Shown: positions 45,737-58,033 of the stretch, piece by piece
Layout: each line of letters starts with the position of its first letter
Position numbering within the stretch: the stretch's first letter is position 1
Sequence record: OQ939939
Reading direction: 5' to 3' (one strand)
Length of the DNA stretch: 64,000 nucleotides
Source of the DNA: Escherichia phage SUT_E1620
Notes under the pieces: generated by a model
Database searches by the model: none
What the model was told of the DNA's origin: nothing
Seen by the model: only the letters and a program-made list of their open reading frames with translations
Made by a program: the position numbers and the translations under genes

Positions 45737-45780
45737 AAATTGATTTGCTAAACGCCTCAAAATTCTGTATAATAGATTCA
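45733..45780 (+). promoter_or_regulatory. Sigma70-type early promoter driving ORF-free tract
   Basis: TTGCTA (45745-45750), N17, TATAAT (45768-45773), CATAAATTAGAGAAC box; no ORF for ~830 nt downstream. Confidence 0.7.
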
Positions 45781-46621
45781 TAAATTAGAGAACAGCGAGC
45801 CGATTACGCTGAGTGAGTTTAGTGATTCCTACTAGGATAGCTATTCCACTGAATAGAGTCGGTGAGTTGGAGACTAGTAAGTACTCTGAGAGAGGCTACG
45901 AGCTAACGCTTATTGCTATTGATAGGGAACTGAAAATCTGCGGAAAACTCGGGAGCTGTCCCGAAATCTCGTAAACTCTTCTCTAGTTTATGTTAGTGGG
46001 GTGTCGAACTGACTTATGTGATAACACTGCCGTCCTAGTATAAACGGTAATATCAAACCGTAACTGGTGGAAGATGCAGGTTCGAATCCTGCGGTCGGAA
46101 AGAATCAGATAACTCGGGCTTATACCGGATAAGCATTCGCTGCTGGAGTACATACTATGACGGTTCAGGAGGTACGCCGCCTGATCAGTATTAGGTTAGA
46201 ATCGAAACAGCTAAACCACGAGGAAACCTGACGGCCTCAACCAAACTCGGAACTCGGGATCACTGCCTAGTGTGTGCCCCGTTTAACATAGAGACTAGGC
46301 ATCGAAAATCGGAGGTGTGATTCTACCAGACCGCGTGAATATGAGAGTGGGAAATGCTGGCATGAGAGATGTCACTAATGGTGCCCAATAGTACAGGTAA
46401 TTCGCGATAATTCCTGTTGAGTGGCAGCAGTAGGCTGGGAGTCATGACCTAAGCCTAACCGAGTTCTTCACATACGGAGAACATAACCACAAAGTCACCC
46501 TGACTTAAACTGGAGGATATTGTCTGACGGAAGGGCTGCAGAGCTTAATCTGAGGGGGCTGACCCTACCTACCGTCGGGTATCTTTAAGAGCTTTTATAA
46601 GAGTTCTTAAAAATACCTAAA

Positions 46622-46693
46622 CGGGGTGTAGTCTAAGGGATAGGCAGGAGTCTTCTAAATTCCTTTATGCAGGTTCGAATCCTGTCACCTCGG
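46622..46693 (+). tRNA. tRNA-Arg (anticodon TCT)
   Basis: Hand-folded cloverleaf: acceptor CGGGGTG/CACCTCG, anticodon loop CTTCTAA, T-loop GGTTCGAATCC, 3' GCCA. Confidence 0.75.
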
Positions 46694-46722
46694 CCAATTT
46701 TATTAACTGTTAGGAAAATAAA

Positions 46723-46923
46723 ATGAAAACACGATATATAGTAAAAGTAGTAGGTGAACATTCACAAGTAAATACCACCGATGTTACAGCACTAGCATTT
46801 GAGGTAATCTCCGGTATAGTCATATTTCATAATGGAGATATCAAAGCTCCTGAATTTGCTGTGGATGCTAGCCTGTTTATTTCTGCAACTAAAGTAACTG
46901 TAGTAGCTAACTCTTCTAAATAA
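46723..46923 (+). CDS. Hypothetical protein (66 aa)
   Basis: ORF with RBS AGGAAAA. Confidence 0.5.
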   Translation: MKTRYIVKVVGEHSQVNTTDVTALAFEVISGIVIFHNGDIKAPEFAVDASLFISATKVTVVANSSK

Positions 46924-46934
46924 TAAGGAAATAT

Positions 46935-47879
46935 ATGTTTACTAAAAACACTAAAGAACTGACTTCCGATCAAAAAGTAATTCGTACTATTAAACGTTGG
47001 GGTGTTGGTGCTGTAGTTGGTCTTGGCGCTCTTATTCTGGCTCTCAATTCCTATACAGTTGTTCAGGACGGTACGGTTAAAACTCAGACTTTCCTGGGTA
47101 AAGTTAGTCCTAATCCTGTATTGCCGGGGTTCCATATTGTTAACCCATTTGCTTCTTTTGATACTTTTAGTACGAAAGATATTTCCATGAAACTGGATAA
47201 ACTTCAGGTTCCTAGCCAGGATAAGTTTAAGTCTACTGTTGACATTACCGTTATGTTGCAGTTTGATGGTGCTAAAGCTCCTATGAACCGTGTTAACGCA
47301 GGTACTCAGGATCAAGCTCTGAACAAGTACGTTGAAGAGAAGATGCTGTCTACGATTCGTGAGTTTGGTAAGTCTGTACCAAAAGCACAAGATCTGTTCG
47401 ACGCTAAGATTCAGGCTCAACTGCAAACCGCTATTCAGCAAGAAGTAGAAGAGTACGCGCGCCCTTATGGTTACACCGTTAAGCAAGTATTCCTTCAGGA
47501 TATTACTCTGCCACCGGTAATTATGGAACAGGTACAGAACACCAAAGTTCGTGAAGAACAAGTTAACGCTGCAAAAGCTGAACTGGCTCGTGTTGAACAA
47601 GAAGCACAGCAGAAAGTTAAGCAAGCTGAGGCAGATCGTTCCGCTCGTGAAAATATGGCAGTAGCTAACGAACGTGACGCAGATGCTAAACTGTACGCAG
47701 CTAAGAAAGAAGCTGAAGCTAACGCCGCTCTGCAACGTACCATTACTCCTGAAATGATTCGTTGGAAGCAGCTGGAAGTTGAAATGCTTCGTGCTGAAAA
47801 ATACCAAGGTGGTGTACCGCAGACTGTTGTCGGTACTGGCTACGATGGTCAAATGATCATGGATATGCGTAACAAGTAA
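46935..47879 (+). CDS. SPFH/band-7 (prohibitin-like) membrane protein
   Basis: N-terminal TM helix (WGVGAVVGLGALILAL), SPFH-like core, C-terminal coiled coil; 341-aa minus-strand ORF here judged antisense artefact. Confidence 0.7.
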   Translation: MFTKNTKELTSDQKVIRTIKRWGVGAVVGLGALILALNSYTVVQDGTVKTQTFLGKVSPNPVLPGFHIVNPFASFDTFSTKDISMKLDKLQVPSQDKFKSTVDITVMLQFDGAKAPMNRVNAGTQDQALNKYVEEKMLSTIREFGKSVPKAQDLFDAKIQAQLQTAIQQEVEEYARPYGYTVKQVFLQDITLPPVIMEQVQNTKVREEQVNAAKAELARVEQEAQQKVKQAEADRSARENMAVANERDADAKLYAAKKEAEANAALQRTITPEMIRWKQLEVEMLRAEKYQGGVPQTVVGTGYDGQMIMDMRNK

Positions 47880-47902
47880 TAGTTACACGTAATCTTCGAA
47901 CC

Positions 47903-47938
47903 AAGCCCGCGTTTCCTCCGAGAGCGCGGGCTTTTCTG
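47903..47938 (+). terminator. Rho-independent terminator (first of tandem pair)
   Basis: AAGCCCGCG...CGCGGGCTT hairpin followed by TTCTG. Confidence 0.75.
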
Positions 47939-47954
47939 TATTTAAGGCAAAAGA

Positions 47955-47992
47955 AAAAGCCCCTTACCTTTCGGCAGGGGCTTTTGTTTTTT
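47955..47992 (+). terminator. Rho-independent terminator (second of tandem pair)
   Basis: AAAAGCCCCT...AGGGGCTTTT hairpin followed by GTTTTTT. Confidence 0.8.
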
Positions 47993-48053
47993 GGTTTAGA
48001 ACCATACTCTTGGTGTACAGCAACCACCCATACGGGAGAGAGAGGAATCAAAC

Positions 48054-48350
48054 ATGAAACGCATTGTACTTGCATTGACTCTAGTATCTACTTCTGTATT
48101 TGCTGCTCCGCAACAGGAACTTTGTCAAGTTCAGGTTTGTAATAAGTTAGAACGATTTACTTTGGATATTTGGTCACACATTAAAGATAATATGGGTGAA
48201 CAGTGTTTTGATATTGTTCTGCCAAAAGAGCAGGCTGTTCCTGGTGCTGTTCTTAGCTCAGAGTCACGTTGGTGGCAGGGTTCTTCTATCAACCCAACTA
48301 AGAAGTCAGTGACACGTATCAAACAAGTATATCAGTGCAACGTTCAGTAA
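48054..48350 (+). CDS. Secreted small protein (signal peptide)
   Basis: 98 aa; N-terminal MKRIVLALTLVSTSVFAAPQ signal-peptide-like; RBS GAGAGAGG. Confidence 0.6.
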   Translation: MKRIVLALTLVSTSVFAAPQQELCQVQVCNKLERFTLDIWSHIKDNMGEQCFDIVLPKEQAVPGAVLSSESRWWQGSSINPTKKSVTRIKQVYQCNVQ

Positions 48351-48351
48351 A

Positions 48352-48398
48352 ATTTCACTTGCTTAATGCCGAAATTTTCTGTATAATATATTCATAAA
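48352..48398 (+). promoter_or_regulatory. Sigma70-type early promoter directly upstream of tRNA-Ser
   Basis: TTGCTT (48359-48364), N17, TATAAT (48382-48387); tRNA starts ~15 nt after -10. Confidence 0.75.
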
Positions 48399-48401: not shown

Positions 48402-48492
48402 GGAAGATTAACCCTAAAGGTAAGGGAGCTGTTTGCTAAACAGCCAGTAGCTGTGGAGACACGGTGTGCCAGTTCGAATCTGGCATCTTCCT
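48402..48492 (+). tRNA. tRNA-Ser (anticodon GCT), long variable arm
   Basis: Acceptor GGAAGAT/ATCTTCC, anticodon stem-loop GCTGT-TTGCTAA-ACAGC, T-loop GCCAGTTCGAATCTGGC, CCA encoded. Confidence 0.75.
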
Positions 48493-48500
48493 CCAAATTT

Positions 48501-48575
48501 GGTTCTCAAGCTCATTTGGTATGAGCCGTCGCCTCATAAGCGAAAGGTAGGTAGGTTCGAATCCTCCGGGAGCCA
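48501..48575 (+). tRNA. tRNA with CAT anticodon (Met, fMet or Ile-lysidine)
   Basis: Acceptor GGTTCTC/GGGAGCC, anticodon loop CTCATAA, T-loop TTCGAAT, CCA encoded. Confidence 0.7.
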
Positions 48576-48595
48576 CCAATTAACTAGGAGACTAT

Positions 48596-48781: not shown

Positions 48782-48782
48782 G

Positions 48783-49129: not shown

Positions 49130-49203
49130 GGGGGTGTAATCGAATTGGCATAGGTACTGGACTTAAAATTCAGGTTTTGTGGGTTCGAATCCCACCACCC
49201 CTA
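49130..49203 (+). tRNA. tRNA with TAA anticodon (Leu-type decoding UUA) but short variable loop
   Basis: Acceptor GGGGGTG/CACCCCT, anticodon stem-loop CTGGA-CTTAAAA-TTCAG, T-loop GTGGGTTCGAATCCCAC, A73, CCA. Confidence 0.6.
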
Positions 49204-49357
49204 CCAAATTAAGGAAATAAAATGAAAGCTATTAAGAAAGCACTACGTAAATTTATGTACTGTCGTTTTCATAGCATCAAGGCTTCAACTAATGGTACGA
49301 CTTACGATCGCTATGATCCTAAGTTTGGCTTACATTCTAAATAACTGGAGATAATAA

Positions 49358-49577: not shown

Positions 49578-49625
49578 AAATTTTAAAAATGTACTTGCTT
49601 TTTACTTAAGATTTCTGCTATAATA
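49578..49625 (+). promoter_or_regulatory. Sigma70-type early promoter
   Basis: TTGCTT (49595-49600), N18, TATAAT (49619-49624). Confidence 0.65.
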
Positions 49626-49957: not shown

Positions 49958-50000
49958 AAATTTGACTTGCTCAGTCCTTCAAAACTTGATATAATATTTA
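49958..50000 (+). promoter_or_regulatory. Sigma70-type early promoter upstream of tRNA cluster
   Basis: TTGCTC (49967-49972), N17, TATAAT (49990-49995). Confidence 0.65.
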
Positions 50001-50118
50001 TCTAATTTGGAAACATATCTGAATGAGAAGTAATTAAGCGAGTTGCTTTTAGGGGTAAAGTCAGGAAATCCTGAAATATTCCACCTTGAGTTTAACCGAC
50101 TTACTTTTCATTCAAATA

Positions 50119-50196
50119 TGGGGGATTGGCTCAGTGGCGACGGCGCCTGGCTGTAGACCGGGTATATCACGCGGAGGTTCGAGTCCTCCATCCCCC
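50119..50196 (+). tRNA. tRNA-Tyr (anticodon GTA)
   Basis: Acceptor GGGGGAT/ATCCCCC, anticodon stem-loop CCTGG-CTGTAGA-CCGGG, extended variable region, T-loop GGAGGTTCGAGTCCTCC, CCA. Confidence 0.7.
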
Positions 50197-50207
50197 ACCA
50201 AATTTAA

Positions 50208-50279
50208 TGCACCTATCGTCTAATGGTTAGGACATCAGGATTTCAATCTGAGAATCGGAGTTCAATTCTCCGTGGGTGT
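50208..50279 (+). tRNA. tRNA-Glu (anticodon TTC), isotype tentative
   Basis: Acceptor GCACCTA/TGGGTGT, anticodon stem-loop TCAGG-ATTTCAA-TCTGA, T-loop CGGAGTTCAATTCTCCG, GCCA end. Confidence 0.6.
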
Positions 50280-50291
50280 GCCAATTAATAA

Positions 50292-50359
50292 TTGGGGTAC
50301 GCATAGGTTGCTAGTGGGCCTCCAAAACCCATGAAAAGGTTTCGAATACCTTTACCCCT
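50292..50359 (+). tRNA. tRNA-Trp (anticodon CCA), 5' boundary uncertain
   Basis: Anticodon loop CTCCAAA, T-arm AAGGTTTCGAATACCTT, 3' TACCCCT-G-CCA; short D-arm, position-1 mismatch. Confidence 0.5.
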
Positions 50360-50377
50360 GCCAGATAAGAAAATAGT

Positions 50378-50941
50378 ATGTTTAAGACAATACCTGAATT
50401 TCCTATGTATAAAATTTCTGAAACAGGCAAAGTTTACTCATTGCATGTTAACAGAGAAATAGCTACTTATCTTAACAATAAAGGTTATCCATGTGTTAAG
50501 CTAAGTAAAAATGGTGTTGAGCATACTCTTTTAATATCTAGACTATTATGCAGAGTATTTAAAGATTTAGAAGATCTTTATTCCTCTAAAGAAGTAGACC
50601 ATAAAGATAGAAATCCGGCAAATTTTGAACTAAGCAACCTACAAGTTCTTAGTAAAGAAGAGCACGTAATAAAAACATGTTCTGATAACAATATTAGTAG
50701 AAGAACGGATGTTTGTCCTATTTGTGGTGATACTAAGCATAAATCCTCAAAAGCCTGCTTAAAGTGTACTGCTTCGGCTAGGATTAAGAGTAGAGATATT
50801 ACAAAAGAAGATATAGAGTATTGGGTACGAAACTTCTCCTGGGCTAGAGCTTCAAGAGAACTTGGACTATCTGATAATGGACTCCGAAAGAGATATAAGG
50901 CTCTTGGGGGAGACCCTAAAAATATTTGCACCTTTAGCTGA
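50378..50941 (+). CDS. HNH homing endonuclease with C-terminal DNA-binding module
   Basis: HNH core (EVDHKDRNPANFELSNL), Cys cluster, C-terminal LSDNGLRKRYKALGG shared with ORF 52201..52782. Confidence 0.75.
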   Translation: MFKTIPEFPMYKISETGKVYSLHVNREIATYLNNKGYPCVKLSKNGVEHTLLISRLLCRVFKDLEDLYSSKEVDHKDRNPANFELSNLQVLSKEEHVIKTCSDNNISRRTDVCPICGDTKHKSSKACLKCTASARIKSRDITKEDIEYWVRNFSWARASRELGLSDNGLRKRYKALGGDPKNICTFS

Positions 50942-50999
50942 GATGGATTAGCGCTTGCCTGAAGAGCTTGAGAGGTTGGATCGTTACCAACGGGGTGCA
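50928..50999 (+). tRNA. Candidate tRNA-Phe (anticodon GAA) with non-canonical T-loop and weak anticodon stem
   Basis: 7/7 acceptor pairing GCACCTT/GGGGTGC, D-stem GCTG/TAGC, anticodon loop CTGAAGA, T-stem GTTGG/CCAAC with loop ATCGTTA (54/58 swapped), A73-CCA; anticodon stem has two U-U mismatches. Confidence 0.45.
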
Positions 51000-51019
51000 C
51001 CAATTTGAAGGAGATGCTG

Positions 51020-51292
51020 ATGCATCCTGAAAACTTCTTTATTTACTGTGCGGATAAGTCGCTGAAACGTAGAATTAACAAAGTCTATCATTATCGTGCC
51101 AGTCAACAGCCTTATGTTTACGCTTTTGACGGAGATCACATTCCACTAGATCAATTAGCGTGTGATTACATGGTATTGAAGAACTTTGATGAGACAAAGA
51201 TCTCAAGCGTTCATAATCGACAGAATCCACTAACGTGGAAGTATAAGAAGAAAAAGAAAGGCATCATATTTCTGAAAAATGTAGTTGCTTAA
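51020..51292 (+). CDS. Hypothetical protein (~90 aa)
   Basis: ATG after AAGGAG RBS (track ORF starts at upstream TTG). Confidence 0.5.
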   Translation: MHPENFFIYCADKSLKRRINKVYHYRASQQPYVYAFDGDHIPLDQLACDYMVLKNFDETKISSVHNRQNPLTWKYKKKKKGIIFLKNVVA

Positions 51293-51320
51293 CCGCTTAA
51301 AGTTCTGTATAATTATTACA
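51280..51320 (+). promoter_or_regulatory. Sigma70-type early promoter
   Basis: TTGCTT (51285-51290), N16, TATAAT (51307-51312). Confidence 0.6.
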
Positions 51321-51567: not shown

Positions 51568-51755
51568 AAAAGTTAGTCAAATTTAAGTGTTGTGGTTCTG
51601 AACATATCTTCACACGTTTGCGTGAATTTAAAATGTGTAAGTGTGGTAAATCAGGCTATGATGCTGGAGACGGTTATTACTCCCGTACTCTAGGAGATTT
51701 CAACGATTTAGAATTCGTTGATCTCGAAAAACAAGATAAATCGACCGTTGGCTGA
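51564..51755 (+). CDS. Small Cys-rich protein (63 aa)
   Basis: CCGSEH...CKCGKSG zinc-ribbon-like; 3' end overlaps tRNA-Cys. Confidence 0.5.
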   Translation: MKKLVKFKCCGSEHIFTRLREFKMCKCGKSGYDAGDGYYSRTLGDFNDLEFVDLEKQDKSTVG

Positions 51756-51814
51756 ATGGCTTAGGCGGAGGCCTGCAAAACCTCCTTATGTGAGTTCGAA
51801 TCTCATGCGGTCGT
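51742..51814 (+). tRNA. tRNA-Cys (anticodon GCA)
   Basis: Acceptor CGACCGT/GCGGTCG, anticodon stem-loop GAGGC-CTGCAAA-ACCTC, T-loop GTGAGTTCGAATCTCAT, T73, CCA. Confidence 0.7.
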
Positions 51815-51825
51815 CCAAATTTTTA

Positions 51826-51905
51826 GGGTCGTTAGCCAAGCGGTTTGGCGGTGGACTGTTAATCCATGTCGAAAGACAACGTAGGTTCGAATCCTACACG
51901 GCCCG
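51826..51905 (+). tRNA. tRNA with GTT (Asn) anticodon and a 13-nt hairpin variable arm
   Basis: Acceptor GGGTCGT/ACGGCCC, D-stem GCCA/TGGC, anticodon stem-loop GTGGA-CTGTTAA-TCCAT, variable arm GTCGAAAGACAAC, T-loop GTAGGTTCGAATCCTAC, G73, CCA. Confidence 0.6.
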
Positions 51906-52011
51906 CCATATTCTGTGTAGAGTTAAGTAAACCGGTAGCCAACCAGTTATCATTGCTGATATCGAATTCAGTCACAGATACCATTTTTCATTAACAACTG
52001 AGGAAATAGAT

Positions 52012-52200: not shown

Positions 52201-52782
52201 ATGCACGGAATATCCTTACCCATTCCAGGGTTTGAGGAGTACTTAGTAAGTTTGGATGGGTTAGTATTTAGTATCAAATCAAACAAAATACTAACCCCAA
52301 TAACCAGTAATTACGGATACTTATCTATACGTCTCCATAAAAATGGTCAACAGAGAAATACCGGTGTACATAGGATTTTAGCATGTGCATTTAAGAAATT
52401 ACCAAGTCTAGACTCTGAACTAGAAGTTGACCATATTAACACAGACATTACTTATTGGGGTCTTAATAACTTACAAGTGCTCACAAAAGAGCAGCATCTA
52501 GAAAAGACTTTAAAAGATAAAGGATTTAGTAAACTAAACCATGATAATTGTTGTAAGGATTGTGGTAAAGCTATTTCTTTAAAAGCTGAAAAATGTCAGG
52601 AGTGCTCTTCACATAAACCAAAAGATATCTCTATAACTAAAGAAATAATCGAGGTTACAGTAAGAGAGCTAGGCTGGTCAGGTGCAGGGAGAAAGTTAAG
52701 TTATTCAGATAATGGGTTGCGTAAAAGATACACTTCTTTAGGAGGCAATCCTAAAGAACTTAAAAAGTTAAAGGTACTATAG
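52201..52782 (+). CDS. HNH homing endonuclease (paralog of 50378..50941)
   Basis: HNH core (EVDHINTDITYWGLNNL), Cys cluster, C-terminal LSYSDNGLRKRYTSLGG. Confidence 0.75.
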   Translation: MHGISLPIPGFEEYLVSLDGLVFSIKSNKILTPITSNYGYLSIRLHKNGQQRNTGVHRILACAFKKLPSLDSELEVDHINTDITYWGLNNLQVLTKEQHLEKTLKDKGFSKLNHDNCCKDCGKAISLKAEKCQECSSHKPKDISITKEIIEVTVRELGWSGAGRKLSYSDNGLRKRYTSLGGNPKELKKLKVL

Positions 52783-52844
52783 TCTAACGGTTAGGATACT
52801 CCCCTGTCACGGGAGAGGTAGGGTTTCGATTACCCTTAGTACCG
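52773..52844 (+). tRNA. tRNA-Asp (anticodon GTC)
   Basis: Acceptor GGTACTA/TAGTACC, anticodon stem-loop CTCCC-CTGTCAC-GGGAG, T-loop AGGGTTTCGATTACCCT, G73, CCA; first 10 nt overlap HNH gene stop. Confidence 0.75.
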
Positions 52845-52853
52845 CCAAATTAT

Positions 52854-52926
52854 ACATCCATAGCTCAATGGTTAGAGCTACCGCCTCTTAAGCGGAGGGT
52901 TCTAGGTTCAAGTCCTAGTGGGTGTA
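52854..52926 (+). tRNA. tRNA-Lys (anticodon CTT)
   Basis: Acceptor ACATCCA/TGGGTGT, D-stem GCTC/GAGC, anticodon loop CTCTTAA, T-loop CTAGGTTCAAGTCCTAG, A73, CCA. Confidence 0.65.
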
Positions 52927-53141
52927 CCAAACATCAGAGCAGCGTGATGTACTGCAAAGACCCAAAGTCCGGGGGGACTTCTTGATTCAAAGGAGCAGGC
53001 ATTAATTATCATTCTAGCGTGGTGGAGAGGGGACACCAGCTTGCCGAGGGTAGAAGCTCGTTCGATTCGAGTGAAAGAATGGTTCTCGTAAATCCGCACA
53101 AGTGATAGCAGGTTCAAGTCCTGCCTAGATTGACTTATTAT

Positions 53142-53212: not shown

Positions 53213-53459
53213 CCAAATTTAGGTTTCTGCTTCCTAGAGAACGGACTCCTAGATAAACAAGGCGATGAGTTTCCGGCCGGTTCTAGTCGCTGAAAATCCT
53301 CCCGACCAGGTAGGTGTAGGTAAACGAAAGTTTACTTATTGAGTAGGTTCCGATAGATCGGCGGATCTATTCTGGCATTTAAGAGAAGTCTCGCAAACTT
53401 CTTTGTCAGCAGAGCGTTTGAAGCGTGAGGTGGCCTACACAATAAGTAAATTTATTAAA

Positions 53460-53505
53460 AACTCATTTGCTATTTCACTTAATTCTCTGTATAATATATC
53501 TTATA
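53460..53505 (+). promoter_or_regulatory. Sigma70-type early promoter upstream of tRNA-Pro
   Basis: TTGCTA (53466-53471), N18, TATAAT (53490-53495). Confidence 0.7.
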
Positions 53506-53527: not shown

Positions 53528-53602
53528 CTCCGTGTAGCTCAGTTTGGCCAGAGCGTTCCGTTTGGGGCGGTAGGGTCGGGGGTTCAAATCCTCCCACGGA
53601 GA
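53528..53602 (+). tRNA. tRNA-Pro (anticodon TGG)
   Basis: Acceptor CTCCGTG/CACGGAG, D-stem GCTC/GAGC, anticodon loop TTTGGGG, T-loop GGGGGTTCAAATCCTCC, A73, CCA. Confidence 0.75.
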
Positions 53603-53611
53603 CCAAACAAT

Positions 53612-53686
53612 TGCGGGTTAGATCTCTGGTAGAGATCGCTAGTCTCATAAGCTAGAAAGAGGTAGGTTCGATTCCTACACCCGCTT
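53612..53686 (+). tRNA. tRNA with CAT anticodon (Met, fMet or Ile-lysidine)
   Basis: Anticodon stem-loop CTAGT-CTCATAA-GCTAG, T-loop GTAGGTTCGATTCCTAC, 3' ACCCGCT-T-CCA; 1:72 U-U mismatch. Confidence 0.65.
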
Positions 53687-53710
53687 CCAATTTAATAGAA
53701 GGATTTCGAA

Positions 53711-53874
53711 ATGAAATTATTTCGTTTAAAAGTAAGTGACCTGCGATCTAGCAAAGATCGTAAGAAGTATCCACTAGCCCATTACGGTAAAGATGAAAAC
53801 GAAGTGATGGCGGAATTTGGTATTAATCATCCTTACTTGAAAGTCTACTCTATTAAGGAAGTCTATGCTAATTA
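53711..53874 (+). CDS. Small hypothetical protein (~54 aa)
   Basis: ATG after AAGGA RBS; below track size cut-off; stop overlaps next ORF start. Confidence 0.35.
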
Positions 53875-54338
53875 ATAAAGTTTTAGCTGCCTTAAACCTT
53901 CCTGATAACTTCATTATAGATGATAAGCTCATAAGAGCTTATATGAGCAAATATAACGAAATTTCGGGTAAAGAAGGTAAGTTAAAAACTTCAGAGTTTA
54001 GATTCTGTTATCGAATGGCAGCCTTAAATCTCTTAAAGTATAAAAGGGAGCATAAAATACCTATAACGGAAGGTTTTGTATATGTAATTGGTAATCCAGC
54101 ATGGCCAGGCATGTATAAAATAGGTATGACTATAGATGTGAATGAGAGGTTAGCAAGTTATCAAACTTATTCACCTAATAGAGACTACAAGCTATACCAT
54201 TTCAGATTTTCGTCGGATAAAAGACGTACAGAGAAAGAATTACATAATCTTCTTAAAGATTATAGAGTATCTGGAGAGTGGTTTGAAGTACCTATACTAG
54301 ATGCTTTTAAATTATTAGTAGAAAAATTGGATTGCTAG
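53865..54338 (+). CDS. T5orf172-domain (GIY-YIG-related) protein
   Basis: Core GFVYVIGNPAWPGMYKIGMTIDVNERL; 3' end overlaps tRNA-Lys. Confidence 0.6.
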   Translation: MLINKVLAALNLPDNFIIDDKLIRAYMSKYNEISGKEGKLKTSEFRFCYRMAALNLLKYKREHKIPITEGFVYVIGNPAWPGMYKIGMTIDVNERLASYQTYSPNRDYKLYHFRFSSDKRRTEKELHNLLKDYRVSGEWFEVPILDAFKLLVEKLDC

Positions 54339-54403
54339 CTCAACTGGATAAGAGTAGCGGACCTTTAATCCGTCAGTTCTGGGTTCGAATCCCAGGCAAT
54401 CCA
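54329..54403 (+). tRNA. tRNA-Lys (anticodon TTT)
   Basis: Acceptor GGATTGC/GCAATCC, anticodon stem-loop GCGGA-CCTTTAA-TCCGT, T-loop CTGGGTTCGAATCCCAG, A73, CCA; first 10 nt overlap upstream ORF end. Confidence 0.7.
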
Positions 54404-54410
54404 CCAAACT

Positions 54411-54481
54411 GCTCGGTTAGTTTAATGGGAGAACCCCGTCTTTACACGGCGGTTGCGATAGTTCGATTCTATCACCGAGTA
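54411..54481 (+). tRNA. tRNA-Val (anticodon TAC)
   Basis: Acceptor GCTCGGT/ACCGAGT, D-stem GTTT/GAAC, anticodon stem-loop CCGTC-TTTACAC-GGCGG, T-loop GATAGTTCGATTCTATC, A73, CCA. Confidence 0.7.
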
Positions 54482-54503
54482 CCAATTAACTCAAAATAAG
54501 GAA

Positions 54504-54866
54504 TTGCAAATGCAATTATCAAGCAAGGTTCAAGGCTATTTCGGTCATGTAACAATGGAGTTCGCTATCTCTAAAGGTTGGGATTTCGAGCAAGATCTAG
54601 CTGAGTTCTACAAAGATATTGATCTGAACGTACCATACATGGGACTCTCCACTGGTCAAGTGATCACAGAAGGCGATGTGTTCAAGGCAAGTCAAGGTGA
54701 GGTAACACCTAGTTTTGCCAAGTTCTGGTTAGGACTTACTTTGAAGGAAGATGCACCAGAGGATGGTGTGGTTATACAGAGTATGCACTCTGGAAGCTCT
54801 GATTACTACCTTTTCGTTAGCGACGTTAAGGAACTACAAGAAATCGCTAAAAATGTACTTGCTTGA
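54504..54866 (+). CDS. Hypothetical protein (120 aa)
   Basis: ORF with RBS AAGGAATTG. Confidence 0.55.
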   Translation: MQMQLSSKVQGYFGHVTMEFAISKGWDFEQDLAEFYKDIDLNVPYMGLSTGQVITEGDVFKASQGEVTPSFAKFWLGLTLKEDAPEDGVVIQSMHSGSSDYYLFVSDVKELQEIAKNVLA

Positions 54867-54900
54867 TGCTTAATTTCTTGTTATAATATTTATATAAATT
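54855..54900 (+). promoter_or_regulatory. Sigma70-type early promoter (overlaps 3' end of upstream ORF)
   Basis: TTGCTT (54859-54864), N17, TATAAT (54882-54887), ATAAATTGATGAGGAG box; ~250-nt untranslated leader before tRNA-Ala. Confidence 0.7.
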
Positions 54901-55149
54901 GATGAGGAGAAATCCTCATCAAAGTTCACTAAGGTATTAGCTCGACCTAGGACTGGCTGCCAAAAAGCACAATTGCAATTAGACCCCTAATGGCGGGGGA
55001 TACTTTGCAATAAGTTCTAGATTAGTCCACTAGATTCAGCGGCAACTGAATAGTGTATCGGGTTTGTGAAGAGCGGTTATCCTCTACTGGCTAATGTCTG
55101 AGGGTAATACGCACACCGAGCTAATAGCCTTAGTAAACTTAAAGATTTT

Positions 55150-55220
55150 GGGGATATAGTTTAATGGTAGAACATCTGCTTTGCACGCAGAAGACGAGGG
55201 TTCAACTCCCTCTTTCTCCA
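55150..55220 (+). tRNA. tRNA-Ala (anticodon TGC)
   Basis: Acceptor GGGGATA/TTTCTCC with G3-U70 pair, anticodon stem-loop TCTGC-TTTGCAC-GCAGA, T-loop GAGGGTTCAACTCCCTC, A73, CCA. Confidence 0.7.
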
Positions 55221-55228
55221 CCAAATTC

Positions 55229-55301
55229 GGGGTCATAGGTTATTTGGTTAAACTTACTGCCTTGCAAGCAGTGGAACTCAGTTCAATTCTGAGTGGCTCC
55301 A
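55229..55301 (+). tRNA. tRNA with TGC anticodon (second Ala-type; isotype tentative)
   Basis: Acceptor GGGGTCA/TGGCTCC (G3-U70 present), anticodon stem-loop ACTGC-CTTGCAA-GCAGT, T-loop CTCAGTTCAATTCTGAG, A73, CCA. Confidence 0.55.
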
Positions 55302-55323
55302 CCAAACAAATTAAGGAAATAAT

Positions 55324-55542: not shown

Positions 55543-55549
55543 ATAAAAT

Positions 55550-55627
55550 GGGGATGTGGCGAAATTGGCAGACGCGCTAGATTTAGGTTCTAGTCTTCGG
55601 GTGTGGGTTCGAGTCCCTCCATCCCTA
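55550..55627 (+). tRNA. tRNA-Leu (anticodon TAG)
   Basis: Acceptor GGGGATG/CATCCCT, anticodon stem-loop CTAGA-TTTAGGT-TCTAG, extended variable region, T-loop GTGGGTTCGAGTCCCTC, A73, CCA. Confidence 0.7.
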
Positions 55628-55646
55628 CCAAACATTGGATTAACTC

Positions 55647-55859
55647 ATGATGAAAACTCCTATAACTGATATCTGGTTAGCTGTTAATACATTAACTAAA
55701 GAGTATGTGTTTATAGAGTATGGTCAGAGGTATGACCAAAAGATGTATAATCTCATACTTCCAGTATCCGCTAATGAAGTTTATGATTTAATCCTGAGAT
55801 CTACGGAAGAGCAAATCGACTTGGTGACGAAAACCGCTTGGAAAGTGGCTGACTTGTGA
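55647..55859 (+). CDS. Hypothetical protein (70 aa); 3' third overlaps tRNA-Ser
   Basis: Six-frame ORF; last ~55 nt coincide with tRNA-Ser(GGA), so coding status uncertain. Confidence 0.4.
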   Translation: MMKTPITDIWLAVNTLTKEYVFIEYGQRYDQKMYNLILPVSANEVYDLILRSTEEQIDLVTKTAWKVADL

Positions 55860-55894
55860 AAGCAGGCTTGAGAGTTCGAATCTCTCTTCTTCCG
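55805..55894 (+). tRNA. tRNA-Ser (anticodon GGA), long variable arm
   Basis: Acceptor GGAAGAG/TTCTTCC, anticodon loop TTGGAAA, ~20-nt variable arm, T-loop GAGAGTTCGAATCTCTC, G73, CCA. Confidence 0.65.
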
Positions 55895-55904
55895 CCAAAC
55901 AACT

Positions 55905-55991
55905 GGAAGGTAGGACATAGTGGTATGTAACAGGTCTTGAAAACCTGCCCGCTGTAGCGATATGGTGATGGTTCGACTCCATTACCTTCTG
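55905..55991 (+). tRNA. tRNA-Ser (anticodon TGA), long variable arm
   Basis: Acceptor GGAAGGT/ACCTTCT, anticodon stem-loop CAGGT-CTTGAAA-ACCTG, ~19-nt variable arm, T-loop GATGGTTCGACTCCATT, G73, CCA. Confidence 0.7.
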
Positions 55992-56359
55992 CCAAATCTT
56001 GAAGTATGCCGGAATCGGTAGACGGGGCTTCCTAAAGGGCGTAAGGGGAACATCCACTCCTCATAAGATACCCGAAAACGAGGCTGAGATAAATGGTCTA
56101 TCTCGTGAAGGTTCAAGTCCTTCTGCTTCTTGATATTCAATGGCTCAAAGAGTAACGGTGCTATTTGATGCTCTTAGTAAGACTTTCCCGACATGCGTTC
56201 GGGAGTAAGCTGCTAAGGCTAGAGTAGAAGAGTTTCGGAGAGCCGCCACAATTGAAAATTCGTACTCGTCTTGAGCTGCGTGCAATAGGAGATAACTTGA
56301 TTAGTATTCTAGAAAATGCTATTTGAGGATGGTTTCGCTAATCCTGCGAGTTTTCAATT

Positions 56360-56433
56360 GTGGCTATATCATAATTGGTTAATGATCCTGATTGTGAATC
56401 AGGCCTATGTGGATTCGAATTCCACTAGCCACC
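56360..56433 (+). tRNA. tRNA-His (anticodon GTG)
   Basis: Acceptor GTGGCTA/TAGCCAC, D-stem TCAT/ATGA, anticodon stem-loop CCTGA-TTGTGAA-TCAGG, T-loop GTGGATTCGAATTCCAC, C73, CCA. Confidence 0.75.
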
Positions 56434-56442
56434 CCAAATATT

Positions 56443-56514
56443 GCGTCCTTATTTCAATGGAAAGAATGTAAAGCTACGAACTTTACGATCGGGGTTCGAT
56501 TCCCTGAGGATGCA
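56443..56514 (+). tRNA. tRNA-Arg (anticodon ACG)
   Basis: Acceptor GCGTCCT/AGGATGC, anticodon stem-loop TAAAG-CTACGAA-CTTTA, T-loop CGGGGTTCGATTCCCTG, A73, CCA. Confidence 0.7.
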
Positions 56515-56541
56515 CCAATTAACTTATATAGGAACTAAAAT

Positions 56542-56742: not shown

Positions 56743-56749
56743 AAATTAT

Positions 56750-56822
56750 CGGGATGTAGATCAATTGGCAGATCGTCGGCCTCTGACTCCGAAGGTTCCA
56801 CGTTCGATCCGTGGCATCCCAG
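56750..56822 (+). tRNA. tRNA-Gln (anticodon CTG)
   Basis: Acceptor CGGGATG/CATCCCA (C1-A72 mismatch), D-stem GATC/GATC, anticodon loop CTCTGAC, T-loop CCACGTTCGATCCGTGG, G73, CCA. Confidence 0.7.
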
Positions 56823-56831
56823 CCAAACAAT

Positions 56832-56904
56832 TGGAGAGTAGTGTAACGGTTAGCACAACGGCCTTTGACTCCGTTAATGGTAGGTTCGATTCCTCCTTCT
56901 CCAG
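56832..56904 (+). tRNA. tRNA-Gln (anticodon TTG)
   Basis: Acceptor TGGAGAG/TTCTCCA (U1-A72), anticodon loop CTTTGAC, T-loop GTAGGTTCGATTCCTCC, G73, CCA. Confidence 0.7.
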
Positions 56905-56913
56905 CCAATTTAT

Positions 56914-56985
56914 GCGTGATTAGTTCAGTGGCTAGAATAACTGGCTTCCAACCAGTAGACACGAGTTCGACTCTCGTATCCCGCA
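56914..56985 (+). tRNA. tRNA-Gly (anticodon TCC)
   Basis: Acceptor GCGTGAT/ATCCCGC (one mismatch), anticodon stem-loop ACTGG-CTTCCAA-CCAGT, 4-nt variable loop, T-loop ACGAGTTCGACTCTCGT, A73, CCA. Confidence 0.7.
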
Positions 56986-57004
56986 CCAAATATAAGGAAA
57001 CGTT

Positions 57005-57226
57005 ATGGACGTTTTTGAGTTTCGTAATAAAAACCCCAATAGACGAGTTTTAATTATTGGTGAAACATATCGAGCTTATGAGCAAGAAGATGGTTCGGTT
57101 TTATTAAATGATGAAAAACAAGGCTATAGCTTTCATCCAGAAGAAACATATGAAGAATTTCGTACTAAGTTTCTTTTACCAGACTGGCTAGCAATAGCTG
57201 AGCAAAGAGAATCCGAAGATGGCTGA
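57005..57226 (+). CDS. Hypothetical acidic protein (73 aa)
   Basis: ORF with RBS AAGGAAACG. Confidence 0.5.
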   Translation: MDVFEFRNKNPNRRVLIIGETYRAYEQEDGSVLLNDEKQGYSFHPEETYEEFRTKFLLPDWLAIAEQRESEDG

Positions 57227-57383
57227 TAATCTAAAGCTAAAAGTAGATAAACGAATGAAGTGCGTTGAGGTTGAGTTAGGAGAAGAACGTTTAAAACTCT
57301 CATTCGAATTTCTACAGCAGTTGGCTATGACAGTAATGTCTGATAAGTCCCCTATATTTGAAAAAGAAATCCCGTTGAAATAA
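57219..57383 (+). CDS. Small hypothetical protein (~54 aa)
   Basis: ATG overlapping upstream stop; below track cut-off; coordinates approximate. Confidence 0.3.
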   Translation: MADNLKLKVDKRMKCVEVELGEERLKLSFEFLQQLAMTVMSDKSPIFEKEIPLK

Positions 57384-57392
57384 TGGGTTTAT

Positions 57393-57464
57393 TGCTCCTA
57401 AAGCATTGCTGGCGATGCAGTTGCCTTGTAAGCATCTGAACCGGGTTCGATTCCTGGTGGGAGC
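57393..57464 (+). tRNA. tRNA-Thr (anticodon TGT)
   Basis: Acceptor GCTCCTA/TGGGAGC, D-stem GCAT/ATGC, anticodon loop CTTGTAA, T-loop CCGGGTTCGATTCCTGG, A73, CCA. Confidence 0.7.
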
Positions 57465-57474
57465 ACCAAATTTA

Positions 57475-57525
57475 AAAAATTCATTTGCCTTCTCTCTTAT
57501 TTCTTGTTATAATATTTATATAAAT
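57475..57525 (+). promoter_or_regulatory. Sigma70-type early promoter
   Basis: TTGCCT (57484-57489), N17, TATAAT (57507-57512), ATAAATTAATGAGAGGG box. Confidence 0.7.
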
Positions 57526-57543
57526 TAATGAGAGGGAAACCAA

Positions 57544-57837
57544 ATGAAACGTTATCTTTCTGTCGTGTTCCAAACTGGTGGTCAACGCTACACTTATGAA
57601 TTTCCTGAGTCCTGGAAAATTAAAGAAGGTGATCAAGTTGTTGTATTAACACCTCGTGAAGGCTTCAAAGTAGTAACGGTTAAACAAGTATTTCCAAAAG
57701 ATCACGAACCATCTAAGTCTATTCAGTACAAGATGATTCATGGTCTAGTTCGTAAAGTACCACGAACTGAGGTAGAAGTAGATAAGACTGGTGAAGCTAA
57801 ATACCAGTATACTTCTTACTTAGATGAAATGATGTAA
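57544..57837 (+). CDS. Hypothetical protein (97 aa)
   Basis: ORF after consensus promoter, RBS GAGGGAAAC. Confidence 0.6.
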   Translation: MKRYLSVVFQTGGQRYTYEFPESWKIKEGDQVVVLTPREGFKVVTVKQVFPKDHEPSKSIQYKMIHGLVRKVPRTEVEVDKTGEAKYQYTSYLDEMM

Positions 57838-57838
57838 T

Positions 57839-57911
57839 GCTCTGATAGTTCAACAGGTTAGAACAGGCGACCGATAATCGTCAAATCTTGGTTCGATCCC
57901 AAGTCGGAGTA
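57839..57911 (+). tRNA. tRNA-Ile (anticodon GAT)
   Basis: Acceptor GCTCTGA/TCGGAGT, D-stem GTTC/GAAC, anticodon stem-loop GGCGA-CCGATAA-TCGTC, T-loop CTTGGTTCGATCCCAAG, A73, CCA; begins 2 nt after upstream stop. Confidence 0.7.
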
Positions 57912-57920
57912 CCAAATTAT

Positions 57921-57993
57921 AGTTAGTTGGCAGAGTGGTTATGCACCTCCTTCATACGGAGCGACTACAGTGGTTCAAATCCACTACTAACTA
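57921..57993 (+). tRNA. tRNA with CAT anticodon (third CAT tRNA)
   Basis: Acceptor AGTTAGT/ACTAACT, anticodon loop TTCATAC, T-loop AGTGGTTCAAATCCACT, A73, CCA. Confidence 0.7.
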
Positions 57994-58033
57994 CCATTAA
58001 AAGAGCTAGAGATAGCTAAATATAGGAGCAGTT

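What the first reader, a model, noticed from the sequence alone, without database searches (positions are those of the whole stretch)
45780..58000. Large tRNA island (about 30 genes) covering nearly all amino acids
I hand-folded about 30 tRNAs: Arg x2, Ser x3, three CAT anticodons (consistent with fMet, Met and Ile-lysidine), Leu x2, Tyr, Glu, Trp, Cys, Asn, Asp, Lys x2, Gly x2, Pro, Val, Ala x2, His, Gln x2, Thr, Ile and a Phe candidate. Several sit immediately behind consensus early promoters, with the tRNA 5' end ~15 nt after the -10. This is a near-complete translation supplement, which is a known feature of T5-like phages but notable in size and composition here.
Basis: partly seen in the sequence, partly recalled or inferred. 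Interest (0 to 1): 0.45.

Follow-up and report, generated by a model that had tools for sequence, protein, structure and literature searches.

The report
T5-type phage tRNA island, 30 genes
This is the standard early-gene tRNA island of a T5-like (Epseptimavirus) phage: 30 tRNA genes covering all 20 amino acids, real and correctly read but already known, mixed with homing-endonuclease genes and poorly studied stable RNAs.

Summary
ARAGORN at default settings finds 27 tRNAs, all on the + strand between 46622 and 57996. Shuffled sequence and the other 51.8 kb of the window give none. Each is orthologous to a tRNA annotated in T5 or Wa28, and Phe and Ser-GGA keep their helices through compensatory changes.

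The window is 95-97% identical to Epseptimavirus phages. Wa28 carries the same 30 anticodons, so size and composition are typical. Gene order matches T5, which has 25. Eight T5-type early promoters drive the island, but only Ser-GCU starts about 15 nt after a -10 box.

By wobble rules the set reads 55 of 61 sense codons, or 97% of phage codons. The six unread codons are all depleted in the phage. Published T5 work shows that such tRNAs also replace host tRNAs cut by defence nucleases.

The ORF-free stretches match T5's annotated "stable RNAs of unknown function". The largest, RNAX (45780-46621), has a covariation-supported fold with a tRNA-like domain and matches no other Rfam family.

Verdict: already known; low interest.

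The parts
45745..45773 (+). T5-type early promoter (TTGCTA-N17-TATAAT) driving RNAX and tRNA-Arg; corresponds to T5 promoter P16-17
45780..46621 (+). RNAX homolog: 842-nt ORF-free structured RNA. It starts about 7 nt after the -10 box and ends at the 5' end of tRNA-Arg
   Evidence: T5 misc_RNA rnaX; blastn; covarying helices
46029..46100 (+). tRNA-like domain inside RNAX. It has an acceptor stem, D-arm and canonical T-arm, a 4-bp/UAAC hairpin in place of the anticodon arm, and no CCA. It sits on a 12-bp stem, 46009-46022:46104-46117
   Evidence: Rfam tRNA 29.3 bits
46622..46696 (+). tRNA-Arg (TCT)
   Evidence: 99% identical to T5
47903..47933 (+). strong intrinsic terminator after the SPFH/Band-7 gene (46935-47879); separates the RNAX-Arg unit from the main island
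48359..48387 (+). early promoter; tRNA-Ser(GCT) begins 15 nt after the -10 box
48402..48495 (+). tRNA-Ser (GCT)
48501..48578 (+). tRNA with CAT anticodon, probable Ile2 (lysidine)
   Evidence: 86% identical and syntenic to T5 tRNAI2(CAU)
49130..49206 (+). tRNA-Leu (TAA); absent from T5
49595..49624 (+). early promoter leading into ORF 49655-49930
49967..49995 (+). early promoter upstream of the Tyr leader
50003..50119 (+). 117-nt long-hairpin leader between the promoter and tRNA-Tyr
   Evidence: fold z = -4.86, 0 of 200 shuffles as stable
50120..50200 (+). tRNA-Tyr (GTA); allele unrelated to those of T5 and Wa28 (67-68% identity)
50209..50283 (+). tRNA-Glu (TTC); allele differs from Wa28 (60% identity)
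50293..50363 (+). atypical tRNA-Trp (CCA): U1:U72 mismatch, 3-bp D-stem, C-A closing the anticodon loop
   Evidence: ARAGORN at -ps90 only; 92% identical to annotated T5 tRNA-Trp; cloverleaf is the minimum-energy fold
50378..50941 (+). HNH homing endonuclease (NUMOD4 + HNH_3); its 3' end overlaps tRNA-Phe by 14 nt
   Evidence: absent at this site in Wa28
50928..51002 (+). tRNA-Phe (GAA) with two U-U mismatches in the anticodon stem
   Evidence: Rfam 33.4 bits; ARAGORN -ps95; 91-93% identical to annotated T5/Wa28 Phe; compensatory T-stem change
51285..51313 (+). early promoter
51742..51817 (+). tRNA-Cys (GCA)
51826..51908 (+). tRNA-Asn (GTT)
51911..51983 (+). homolog of T5 rna3 (putative tRNA-like RNA), 96% identity
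52201..52782 (+). HNH homing endonuclease (NUMOD4 + HNH_3); overlaps tRNA-Asp by 10 nt
52773..52847 (+). tRNA-Asp (GTC)
52854..52929 (+). tRNA-Lys (CTT); absent from T5
53010..53134 (+). homolog of T5 rna2 (tRNA-like stable RNA), 90% identity
53142..53215 (+). tRNA-Gly (GCC); absent from T5
53343..53441 (+). homolog of T5 rnaIV stable RNA, 89% identity
   Evidence: fold z = -2.4
53467..53495 (+). early promoter; tRNA-Pro begins 33 nt after the -10 box
53528..53605 (+). tRNA-Pro (TGG)
53612..53689 (+). tRNA with CAT anticodon, probable initiator fMet (U1:U72 mismatch)
   Evidence: 99% identical to T5 tRNAfM
53865..54338 (+). T5orf172/MUG113 (GIY-YIG-like) homing-endonuclease-type ORF; overlaps tRNA-Lys by 10 nt
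54329..54406 (+). tRNA-Lys (TTT) with C33 instead of U33
54411..54484 (+). tRNA-Val (TAC)
54859..54887 (+). early promoter driving the rna2H-like RNA and the two Ala tRNAs
54935..55069 (+). homolog of T5 rna2H stable RNA, 79% identity; the ORF-free transcript spans about 54894-55149
   Evidence: fold z = -3.2
55150..55223 (+). tRNA-Ala (TGC), copy 1
55229..55304 (+). tRNA-Ala (TGC), copy 2; different sequence from copy 1
55550..55630 (+). tRNA-Leu (TAG)
55805..55897 (+). tRNA-Ser (GGA) with a weak D-arm; its 5' part overlaps ORF 55647-55859
   Evidence: ARAGORN at -ps90 only; ortholog of T5 tRNAS2(GGA), with compensatory changes in the acceptor, anticodon and T stems
55905..55994 (+). tRNA-Ser (TGA)
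   Evidence: tRNA-Sec model 36.5 bits
55998..56141 (+). homolog of T5 rna1 (tRNA-like stable RNA), 81% identity
56142..56248 (+). homolog of T5 rnaI stable RNA, 91% identity; paired ends followed by GCCA
56253..56358 (+). homolog of T5 rnaIII stable RNA, 97% identity
56360..56436 (+). tRNA-His (GTG)
56443..56517 (+). tRNA-Arg (ACG); absent from T5
56750..56825 (+). tRNA-Gln (CTG)
56832..56907 (+). tRNA-Gln (TTG)
56914..56988 (+). tRNA-Gly (TCC)
57394..57468 (+). tRNA-Thr (TGT)
57485..57513 (+). early promoter leading into ORF 57544-57837, then Ile and Met
57839..57914 (+). tRNA-Ile (GAT) with C33
57921..57996 (+). tRNA with CAT anticodon, elongator Met
   Evidence: 100% identical to T5 tRNAM(CAU)

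Best explanation
This is the early-region tRNA and stable-RNA island of an Epseptimavirus, a T5-like phage of the Demerecviridae.

Transcription and processing. Host sigma-70 RNA polymerase transcribes the island rightward from eight strong T5-type early promoters. The transcripts are mixed: small ORFs, tRNA dimers or trimers separated by 4-9 nt, and non-coding stable RNAs. Host RNase P and 3' processing enzymes release the tRNAs. This step is inferred from E. coli and T4 biology. All 30 genes encode their own CCA end.

Function. The 30 tRNAs cover all 20 amino acids plus the initiator. They give the phage a largely self-sufficient decoding set matched to its AT-rich codon usage. They also keep phage translation going when host tRNAs are depleted or cut by defence nucleases.

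Plasticity. HNH and GIY-YIG-type homing-endonuclease genes sit against the 5' ends of tRNA genes, and individual tRNA alleles are swapped between relatives.
For: Identity of the island:
- It is 95-97% identical to Epseptimavirus genomes.
- tRNA order is collinear with the annotated T5 region.
- Wa28 has the same 30 anticodons.

Genes: 27 default ARAGORN calls, with none in shuffles. Trp, Phe and Ser-GGA are orthologous to annotated T5 tRNAs, and Phe and Ser-GGA show compensatory substitutions.

Promoters: the pattern TTGCT-N18-TATAAT occurs 21 times in the window against 0.08 expected. Eight T5-type promoters lie in the island (seven match this exact pattern; the eighth has a one-base-longer spacer), all on the + strand.

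Codon match:
- The set reads 55 of 61 sense codons. That is 97.0% of 15,030 phage codons, against 91.2% for average E. coli genes.
- The six unread codons (ACC, CCC, CGG, CTC, GCC, GTC) are each 2.5-9 times depleted in the phage.
- The most phage-enriched codons are all read: AGA 4.8x, CTA 4.6x, AGG 3.2x, ACT 3.1x, ATA 3.0x.

Counter-defence, from published experiments:
- T5 tRNA-Lys neutralises the PARIS system (PMC11464382).
- T5 tRNA-Tyr protects against the PtuAB toxin of retron Eco7 (cited; retron Eco7 paper PMC12673091 listed).
- The anticodon-loop escape hypothesis is set out in PMC10264068.

This phage's Lys-UUU has C33 in place of the near-universal U33.

Homing endonucleases: Pfam hits. 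One is at a different site from its Wa28 counterpart, and the neighbouring Tyr, Glu and Trp alleles are only 60-68% identical to Wa28's.
Against: - There are no expression, processing or aminoacylation data for this phage.
- The T5 record notes that many T5 tRNAs could not be turned into amber suppressors. It also flags Gln-CUG as a pseudogene.
- Trp, Phe and Ser-GGA fall below default ARAGORN thresholds and have structural oddities.
- In T5, large parts of the island can be deleted without loss of viability on laboratory hosts.
- The codon comparison uses a small host sample (one 49-kb E. coli region) and assumes expanded wobble by modified U34.
Confidence: 0.9

Rival explanations
1. Counter-defence is the main reason the island is kept. 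On this view the tRNAs are nuclease-resistant replacements for host tRNAs that immune systems destroy, and the codon match is a side effect of AT-rich composition.
For: Published rescue of T5 by its own tRNA-Lys against PARIS and by tRNA-Tyr against retron Eco7. C33 in Lys-UUU and Ile-GAU. Unrelated Tyr alleles at the same position in the window, T5 and Wa28.
Against: The set covers nearly every codon family, not only known nuclease targets. The unread codons are exactly the ones the phage avoids, which a pure defence model does not predict. No defence assay exists for this phage's alleles.
Confidence: 0.35
2. Much of the island is drifting or selfish cargo. Homing endonucleases spread tRNA cassettes, and several genes (Trp, Phe, Ser-GGA, Gln-CUG) are decaying pseudogenes of no use to the phage.
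For: Three homing-endonuclease ORFs abut tRNA 5' ends. Three tRNAs score below threshold. T5 notes report failed suppressor conversion and a pseudo Gln-CUG. The region is dispensable in the laboratory.
Against: Phe and Ser-GGA keep their stems through compensatory changes between the window, T5 and Wa28. The same 30 anticodons are retained in Wa28. All 30 genes keep an encoded CCA.
Confidence: 0.1
3. The hand-folded cloverleaves are largely chance structures in AT-rich DNA.
For: None beyond the three sub-threshold calls.
Against: 27 default ARAGORN hits against 0 in 40 shuffles and 0 in the other 51.8 kb of the window. 26 of the 27 also pass the Rfam gathering score.
Confidence: 0.01

Closest known systems
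Bacteriophage T5 tRNA gene region (NC_005859, about 28.0-41.6 kb; 25 tRNAs, 8 annotated stable RNAs, heg genes, promoters P11 to P16-17)
   Same: tRNA order matches. RNAX-Arg forms the first unit. Ser(GCU)-Ile2, Tyr-Glu-Trp-Phe, Cys-Asn-rna3, Pro-fMet, Lys-Val, rna2H-Ala, Ser-Ser-rna1-rnaI-rnaIII-His, Gln-Gln-Gly, Thr and Ile-Met follow in the same sequence. Promoter type is the same, and HNH genes overlap tRNA 5' ends. Nine tRNAs are 91-100% identical.
   Different: The window has five extra tRNAs: Leu-UAA, Lys-CUU, Gly-GCC, a second Ala-UGC and Arg-ACG. About ten tRNAs with the same anticodon are below 70% identical, so they are replaced alleles. Homing endonucleases sit at different sites. 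RNAX has an extra variable 5' domain of about 190 nt.
Epseptimavirus islands (Wa28, Stitch, EPS7, Sw2, GRNsp8)
   Same: 95-97% nucleotide identity. Wa28 has the identical set of 30 anticodons, and 26 of 30 tRNAs are at least 90% identical.
   Different: The Tyr-Glu-Trp cassette and Ala copy 1 are different alleles (60-73% identity). The homing endonuclease lies between Trp and Phe here but between Tyr and Glu in Wa28. Wa28 carries nadR-pnuC between the SPFH gene and Ser-GCU; the window does not.
Phage T4 tRNA cluster with stable RNAs 'species 1 and 2' (from my own knowledge, not checked here)
   Same: Phage tRNA genes are co-transcribed with small stable RNAs of unknown function that have tRNA-like 3' parts. 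Host RNase P processes dimeric precursors.
   Different: T4 has only 8 tRNAs and two small RNAs, and no large RNA of about 800 nt.
GOLLD and ROOL large ornate phage RNAs (comparison applies to RNAX only)
   Same: Both are encoded by phages next to tRNA islands and are 600-800+ nt long. GOLLD has a conserved 3' region and a variable 5' region, and can carry tRNAs in its linker (PMC12286853). RNAX is 640-1300 nt, has a conserved 3' core and a variable 5' domain, and has a tRNA-like domain between them.
   Different: There is no match to the GOLLD or ROOL covariance models even at E <= 10. Whether RNAX forms oligomers is unknown. The embedded element is a tRNA mimic without an anticodon, not a tRNA.

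Membership tests
T5-like (Demerecviridae) early-region tRNA island | More than 20 tRNA genes clustered on one strand within about 10-13 kb | tested here: met
   27 default plus 3 relaxed calls, all on the + strand, 46622-57996
T5-like (Demerecviridae) early-region tRNA island | Nucleotide homology and gene order shared with T5 and Epseptimavirus genomes | tested here: met
   95-97% identity to Wa28, Stitch and EPS7; order collinear with NC_005859
T5-like (Demerecviridae) early-region tRNA island | T5-type strong early promoters (A-rich upstream region, TTGCTT, N17, TATAAT, ATAAATT) | tested here: met
   8 in the island; the strict pattern occurs 21 times in the window against 0.08 expected
T5-like (Demerecviridae) early-region tRNA island | Interspersed homing-endonuclease genes abutting tRNA genes | tested here: met
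   Two NUMOD4+HNH_3 ORFs and one T5orf172/MUG113 ORF, each overlapping the next tRNA by 10-14 nt
T5-like (Demerecviridae) early-region tRNA island | Accompanying stable RNA genes (rnaX, rna1, rna2, rna3, rnaI, rnaIII, rnaIV, rna2H) | tested here: met
   All eight have homologs at 79-97% identity in syntenic positions
T5-like (Demerecviridae) early-region tRNA island | tRNAs expressed early, processed and aminoacylated | not testable with these tools
   Needs tRNA-seq, Northern blots or charging assays
Canonical elongator tRNA (applied to Trp 50293, Phe 50928, Ser-GGA 55805) | Passes default automated detection | tested here: inconclusive
   Phe passes the Rfam gathering score (33.4 against 29) but not ARAGORN at default. 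Trp and Ser-GGA appear only at -ps90
Canonical elongator tRNA (applied to Trp 50293, Phe 50928, Ser-GGA 55805) | Cloverleaf helices kept by compensatory change in orthologs | tested here: met
   Phe T-stem, and the Ser-GGA acceptor, anticodon and T stems, covary between the window, T5 and Wa28. Trp is 92% identical to T5 Trp, too close to test
Initiator, Ile2 (lysidine) and elongator Met assignment of the three CAT tRNAs | Orthology to the functionally annotated T5 genes | tested here: met
   99% to fMet, 86% to Ile2, 100% to Met, each with the same neighbours. fMet has a 1:72 mismatch
Initiator, Ile2 (lysidine) and elongator Met assignment of the three CAT tRNAs | Lysidine modification by TilS; formylation and use at the ribosomal P site | not testable with these tools
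   Biochemical
GOLLD / ROOL (for RNAX) | Match to the Rfam covariance model | tested here: not met
   No hit at E <= 5 (13.2-kb scan of the island) or E <= 10 (RNAX alone)
GOLLD / ROOL (for RNAX) | Large covariation-supported structure, phage-encoded, next to a tRNA island | tested here: met
GOLLD / ROOL (for RNAX) | Homo-oligomeric RNA cage | not testable with these tools
   Needs cryo-EM or native gels

The most novel reading that the evidence does not exclude
RNAX (45780-46621) may be an unrecognised class of large ornate phage RNA. The same may hold for the smaller tRNA-like stable RNAs. RNAX is 640-1300 nt long and is conserved in at least three Demerecviridae lineages. It is built around a tRNA mimic that lacks an anticodon and a CCA end. 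It could work like GOLLD or ROOL, or as a decoy or sponge for proteins that recognise tRNA shape, such as defence nucleases or modification and processing enzymes. Because it sits in the model phage T5, it would be genetically tractable in E. coli.
Probability: 0.2. Interest if true: 0.65.

Novelty: already known. Interest (0 to 1): 0.25.

Why it matters
For the finding as stated, little is new. It confirms that hand-folding recovered a textbook T5-like tRNA island and places the window in Epseptimavirus.

The practical value is in annotation:
- Default tools miss three real tRNAs (Trp, Phe, Ser-GGA).
- Most GenBank records of T5-like phages leave the stable RNAs unannotated or call spurious small ORFs there.
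- The allele swaps and the C33 variants are candidates for escape from anticodon nucleases.

The one item with research potential is RNAX. It is a conserved, structured RNA of 640-1300 nt with a tRNA mimic, it is absent from Rfam, and no function is known.

Tried and rejected
- The generic sigma-70 scan was not enriched: 28 sites against 32.9 in shuffles. The strict T5 promoter pattern was needed instead.
- Rfam gave nothing for RNAX apart from the embedded tRNA-like hit, even at E <= 10. By eye I considered RNase P RNA, tmRNA and YrlA/Y-RNA resemblance. No model supports any of them.
- The sub-threshold 'tmRNA_permuted' hit (25.8 bits, 55166-55362) is the Ala-Ala pair. The 'tRNA-Sec' hits are the long-arm Ser tRNAs.
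- The minus-strand ORF 45983-46153 (56 aa) inside RNAX was considered. I rejected it because compensatory base changes define RNA helices there, and T5 annotates the stretch as RNA.
- Literature searches for RNAX and the T5 stable RNAs found no paper.
- A conserved RNAX motif found 0 matches in 185,579 bacterial and archaeal species genomes and 11 metagenome contigs, several about 110 kb, the size of a T5-like phage genome.
- IMG/VR added little diversity beyond known isolates.

Full report
**Observation**

ARAGORN at default settings reports 27 tRNA genes in the 64-kb window. All are on the + strand, between 46622 and 57996. Rfam's tRNA covariance model gives 28 hits at or above the gathering score. 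Of these, 26 are shared with ARAGORN. The other two are a Phe-GAA candidate at 50928-50999 (33.4 bits) and a borderline tRNA-like element at 46029-46100 (29.3 bits). Ser-UGA at 55905 is picked up only by the tRNA-Sec model, as expected for a long-arm Ser tRNA.

Running ARAGORN locally at 90% of its thresholds adds Trp-CCA (50293-50363), Phe-GAA (50928-51002) and Ser-GGA (55805-55893). It also adds two tRNA-like domains, at 46028-46101 and 53008-53080.

Forty dinucleotide-preserving shuffles of 45780-58000 gave no default hits and 0.1 relaxed hits on average. The other 51.8 kb of the window has no default hit.

**Are the three weak calls real genes?**

- Trp is 92% identical to the tRNA-Trp annotated in T5.
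- Phe is 91% identical to the tRNA-Phe annotated in T5, and 93% to the one annotated in Wa28.
- Both fold into a cloverleaf as the minimum-energy structure.
- Phe keeps two U-U mismatches in its anticodon stem in all three phages. Its T-stem differs from the T5 and Wa28 alleles by a compensatory C-G to G-C change.
- Ser-GGA is the ortholog of T5 tRNAS2(GGA). It differs from it by compensatory changes in the acceptor, anticodon and T stems.
- Trp is atypical. It has a U1:U72 mismatch, a 3-bp D-stem, and either a 9-nt anticodon loop or a C-A closing pair.

I treat all three as genuine but unusual tRNA genes. Whether they function is untested.

**What the window is**

The region is 95-97% identical to Epseptimavirus phages such as Wa28, Ace, Stitch, EPS7 and Sw2 (Demerecviridae, T5-like). 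Wa28 annotates 29 tRNAs here. With relaxed ARAGORN it has the same 30 anticodons. The size and composition are therefore typical of the genus.

The T5 reference record (NC_005859) has 25 tRNAs in the same order. The window adds Leu-UAA, Lys-CUU, Gly-GCC, a second Ala-UGC and Arg-ACG.

By position and identity, the CAT tRNAs are assigned as follows:
- The one after Ser-GCU is T5 Ile2(CAU), 86% identical.
- The one after Pro is the initiator, 99% identical, with a U1:U72 mismatch.
- The one after Ile-GAU is elongator Met, 100% identical.

All 30 genes encode CCA.

**Layout**

The strict T5 early-promoter pattern TTGCT-N18-TATAAT occurs 21 times in the window against 0.08 expected. Eight such T5-type promoters lie in the island, one of them with a spacer one base longer than the strict pattern. 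All point rightward, with -35 boxes starting at 45745, 48359, 49595, 49967, 51285, 53467, 54859 and 57485.

- Only Ser-GCU begins about 15 nt after a -10 box, and Pro begins at +33.
- The other promoters lead into small ORFs, into a 117-nt long-hairpin leader before Tyr (z = -4.9), or into stable RNAs.

tRNAs come as dimers or trimers with 4-9 nt spacers. tRNA genes take up 2.3 kb of the 12.2 kb and stable-RNA homologs take up 1.6 kb.

Three homing-endonuclease-type ORFs each run 10-14 nt into the next tRNA. Two are NUMOD4+HNH_3, at 50378-50941 and 52201-52782. One is T5orf172/MUG113, at 53865-54338.

Compared with Wa28, 26 of 30 tRNAs are at least 90% identical. Tyr, Glu, Trp and Ala copy 1 are only 60-73% identical. 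The endonuclease sits between Trp and Phe here but between Tyr and Glu in Wa28. Compared with T5, about ten tRNAs with the same anticodon are below 70% identical. The island is therefore a mosaic of exchangeable alleles.

**Function**

I compared 15,030 codons from 57 window ORFs with 8,362 codons from 23 ordinary genes and 4,939 codons from 27 highly expressed genes in one E. coli K-12 region.

- Under standard wobble rules the 30 tRNAs read 55 of 61 sense codons. That is 97.0% of phage codons, against 91.2% of average host codons.
- The six unread codons (ACC, CCC, CGG, CTC, GCC, GTC) are each 2.5-9 times depleted in the phage.
- The most phage-enriched codons are all read: AGA, CTA, AGG, ACT, ATA, GGA, GCT, AAG, CCT.

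This supports the codon-supply role. The host sample is small and the wobble assumptions are inferred.

Published experiments add a second role:
- T5's tRNA-Lys is not cut by the PARIS nuclease AriB and rescues infection.
- T5 strains with large deletions in the tRNA region are viable but PARIS-sensitive (PMC11464382).
- T5 tRNA-Tyr protects against the PtuAB toxin of retron Eco7 (cited; the retron Eco7 paper PMC12673091 appears).
- Anticodon-loop changes in phage tRNAs have been proposed as nuclease escape (PMC10264068).

In this window Lys-UUU and Ile-GAU carry C33 instead of the near-universal U33, whereas T5's Lys has U33. I take the island to serve both roles. The balance between them is open.

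**The ORF-free stretches**

The T5 record annotates eight 'stable RNAs with unknown functions'. All have homologs here:

| T5 RNA | Window coordinates |
|---|---|
| rnaX | 45780-46621 |
| rna3 | 51911-51983 |
| rna2 | 53010-53134 |
| rnaIV | 53343-53441 |
| rna2H | 54935-55069 |
| rna1 | 55998-56141 |
| rnaI | 56142-56248 |
| rnaIII | 56253-56358 |

I followed RNAX further.

Distribution and size:
- It starts about 7 nt after a promoter's -10 box and ends exactly at tRNA-Arg.
- 526 phage records match it, and most leave it unannotated.
- Its length is 643-853 nt in Tequintavirus and Epseptimavirus. It is about 1,280 nt in Klebsiella Sugarlandvirus and about 1,000 nt in Pectobacterium phage DU_PP_V, which belongs to a different subfamily.
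- Three variants carry 160-169-aa ORF insertions. One variant lacks the tRNA-like domain.

Structure:
- An E-INS-i alignment of 19 sequences with RNAalifold gives about 176 pairs.
- They include a 13-bp helix closing the variable 5' domain, a long-range helix closing the core, and several covarying hairpins in the conserved 3' core.
- 46 of the 176 pairs exceed the 95th percentile of random column pairs, where 8.8 are expected. 20 exceed the 99th percentile, where 1.8 are expected. This test has some selection bias, because the structure came from the same alignment.

The tRNA-like domain and its 12-bp carrier stem were tested with the pair-counting tool:
- 90.5% of cells were paired, against 31-48% when partners were slid.
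- 15 pairs changed on both sides, against 0-2 in the slid controls.
- 0 of 500 shuffles reached the observed values.
- Adding DU_PP_V gives 7 of 12 stem pairs with double changes and 99% pairing.

The domain has a canonical T-arm, U8-A9 and a GG D-loop. It has a 4-bp/UAAC hairpin, or in other lineages longer hairpins, where the anticodon arm should be. It has no CCA.

No other Rfam family matches RNAX. A conserved RNAX motif is absent from 185,579 bacterial and archaeal species genomes. I found no paper on it in the held library.

It resembles GOLLD in context and layout: phage-encoded, next to a tRNA island, with a conserved 3' part, a variable 5' part and tRNA material in between (PMC12286853). 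It is not a detectable homolog.

**Verdict**

The finding is real and correctly interpreted, and it is already known for T5-like phages. Interest is low. The stable RNAs, RNAX above all, are the only part that might repay further work.

Noticed in passing
window 45780-46621: RNAX homolog: an 842-nt ORF-free RNA with many covarying helices and an embedded tRNA mimic. It is conserved in at least three Demerecviridae lineages at 640-1300 nt. It is annotated only in the T5 record, matches no other Rfam family, and no paper on it was found.
   Followed up: yes
window 51911-51983, 53010-53134, 53343-53441, 54935-55069, 55998-56358: Homologs of seven small T5 'stable RNAs of unknown function'. rna1 and rna2 carry T-arm-like hairpins. 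rnaI has paired ends followed by GCCA, like an acceptor stem.
   Followed up: partly
window 50003-50119: The 117-nt leader between an early promoter and tRNA-Tyr folds into one long hairpin (z = -4.9; 0 of 200 shuffles as stable). It may be a processing signal or another stable RNA.
   Followed up: partly
window 54329-54406 and 57839-57914: tRNA-Lys(UUU) and tRNA-Ile(GAU) have C33 instead of the near-universal U33. T5's Lys has U33; Wa28 shares C33. This is a possible escape from anticodon nucleases.
   Followed up: partly
window 50120-50941: The Tyr-Glu-Trp cassette is only 60-68% identical to Wa28, although the flanks are 96-100% identical. An HNH homing endonuclease sits between Trp and Phe here but between Tyr and Glu in Wa28. 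This is consistent with endonuclease-linked allele replacement.
   Followed up: partly
window 50974-50990: The tRNA-Phe T-loop reads AUCGUUA, against UUCGAUA in Wa28. The usual T54-A58 pair appears swapped to A54-U58, alongside a compensatory T-stem change.
   Followed up: no
window 58229-58599: A 371-nt ORF-free stretch lies downstream of the last tRNA, one small ORF further on, before the grcA-like gene. It is present over at least 80% of its length in 148 T5-like records and absent from others such as Wa28. It is unannotated, and its fold z-score is -2.2.
   Followed up: partly
window 45293-45736: The ORF directly upstream of RNAX has a weak YqeY/GatB-type domain (E = 1.7e-5, below the Pfam cut-off). 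Its T5 ortholog is labelled 'tRNA amidotransferase'. It is a tRNA-related neighbour of the tRNA mimic.
   Followed up: no
loci L005, L007, L029 and L004 (RNAX region): Some RNAX variants carry 160-169-aa ORF insertions, likely homing endonucleases. One Epseptimavirus variant (L004) has the tRNA-like domain replaced while keeping the carrier stem.
   Followed up: partly
window 47880-48053 compared with L001 3612-5723: Wa28 has nadR-pnuC (NAD salvage genes) between the SPFH gene and the Ser-GCU promoter. The window lacks them and has only a bidirectional terminator there.
   Followed up: no
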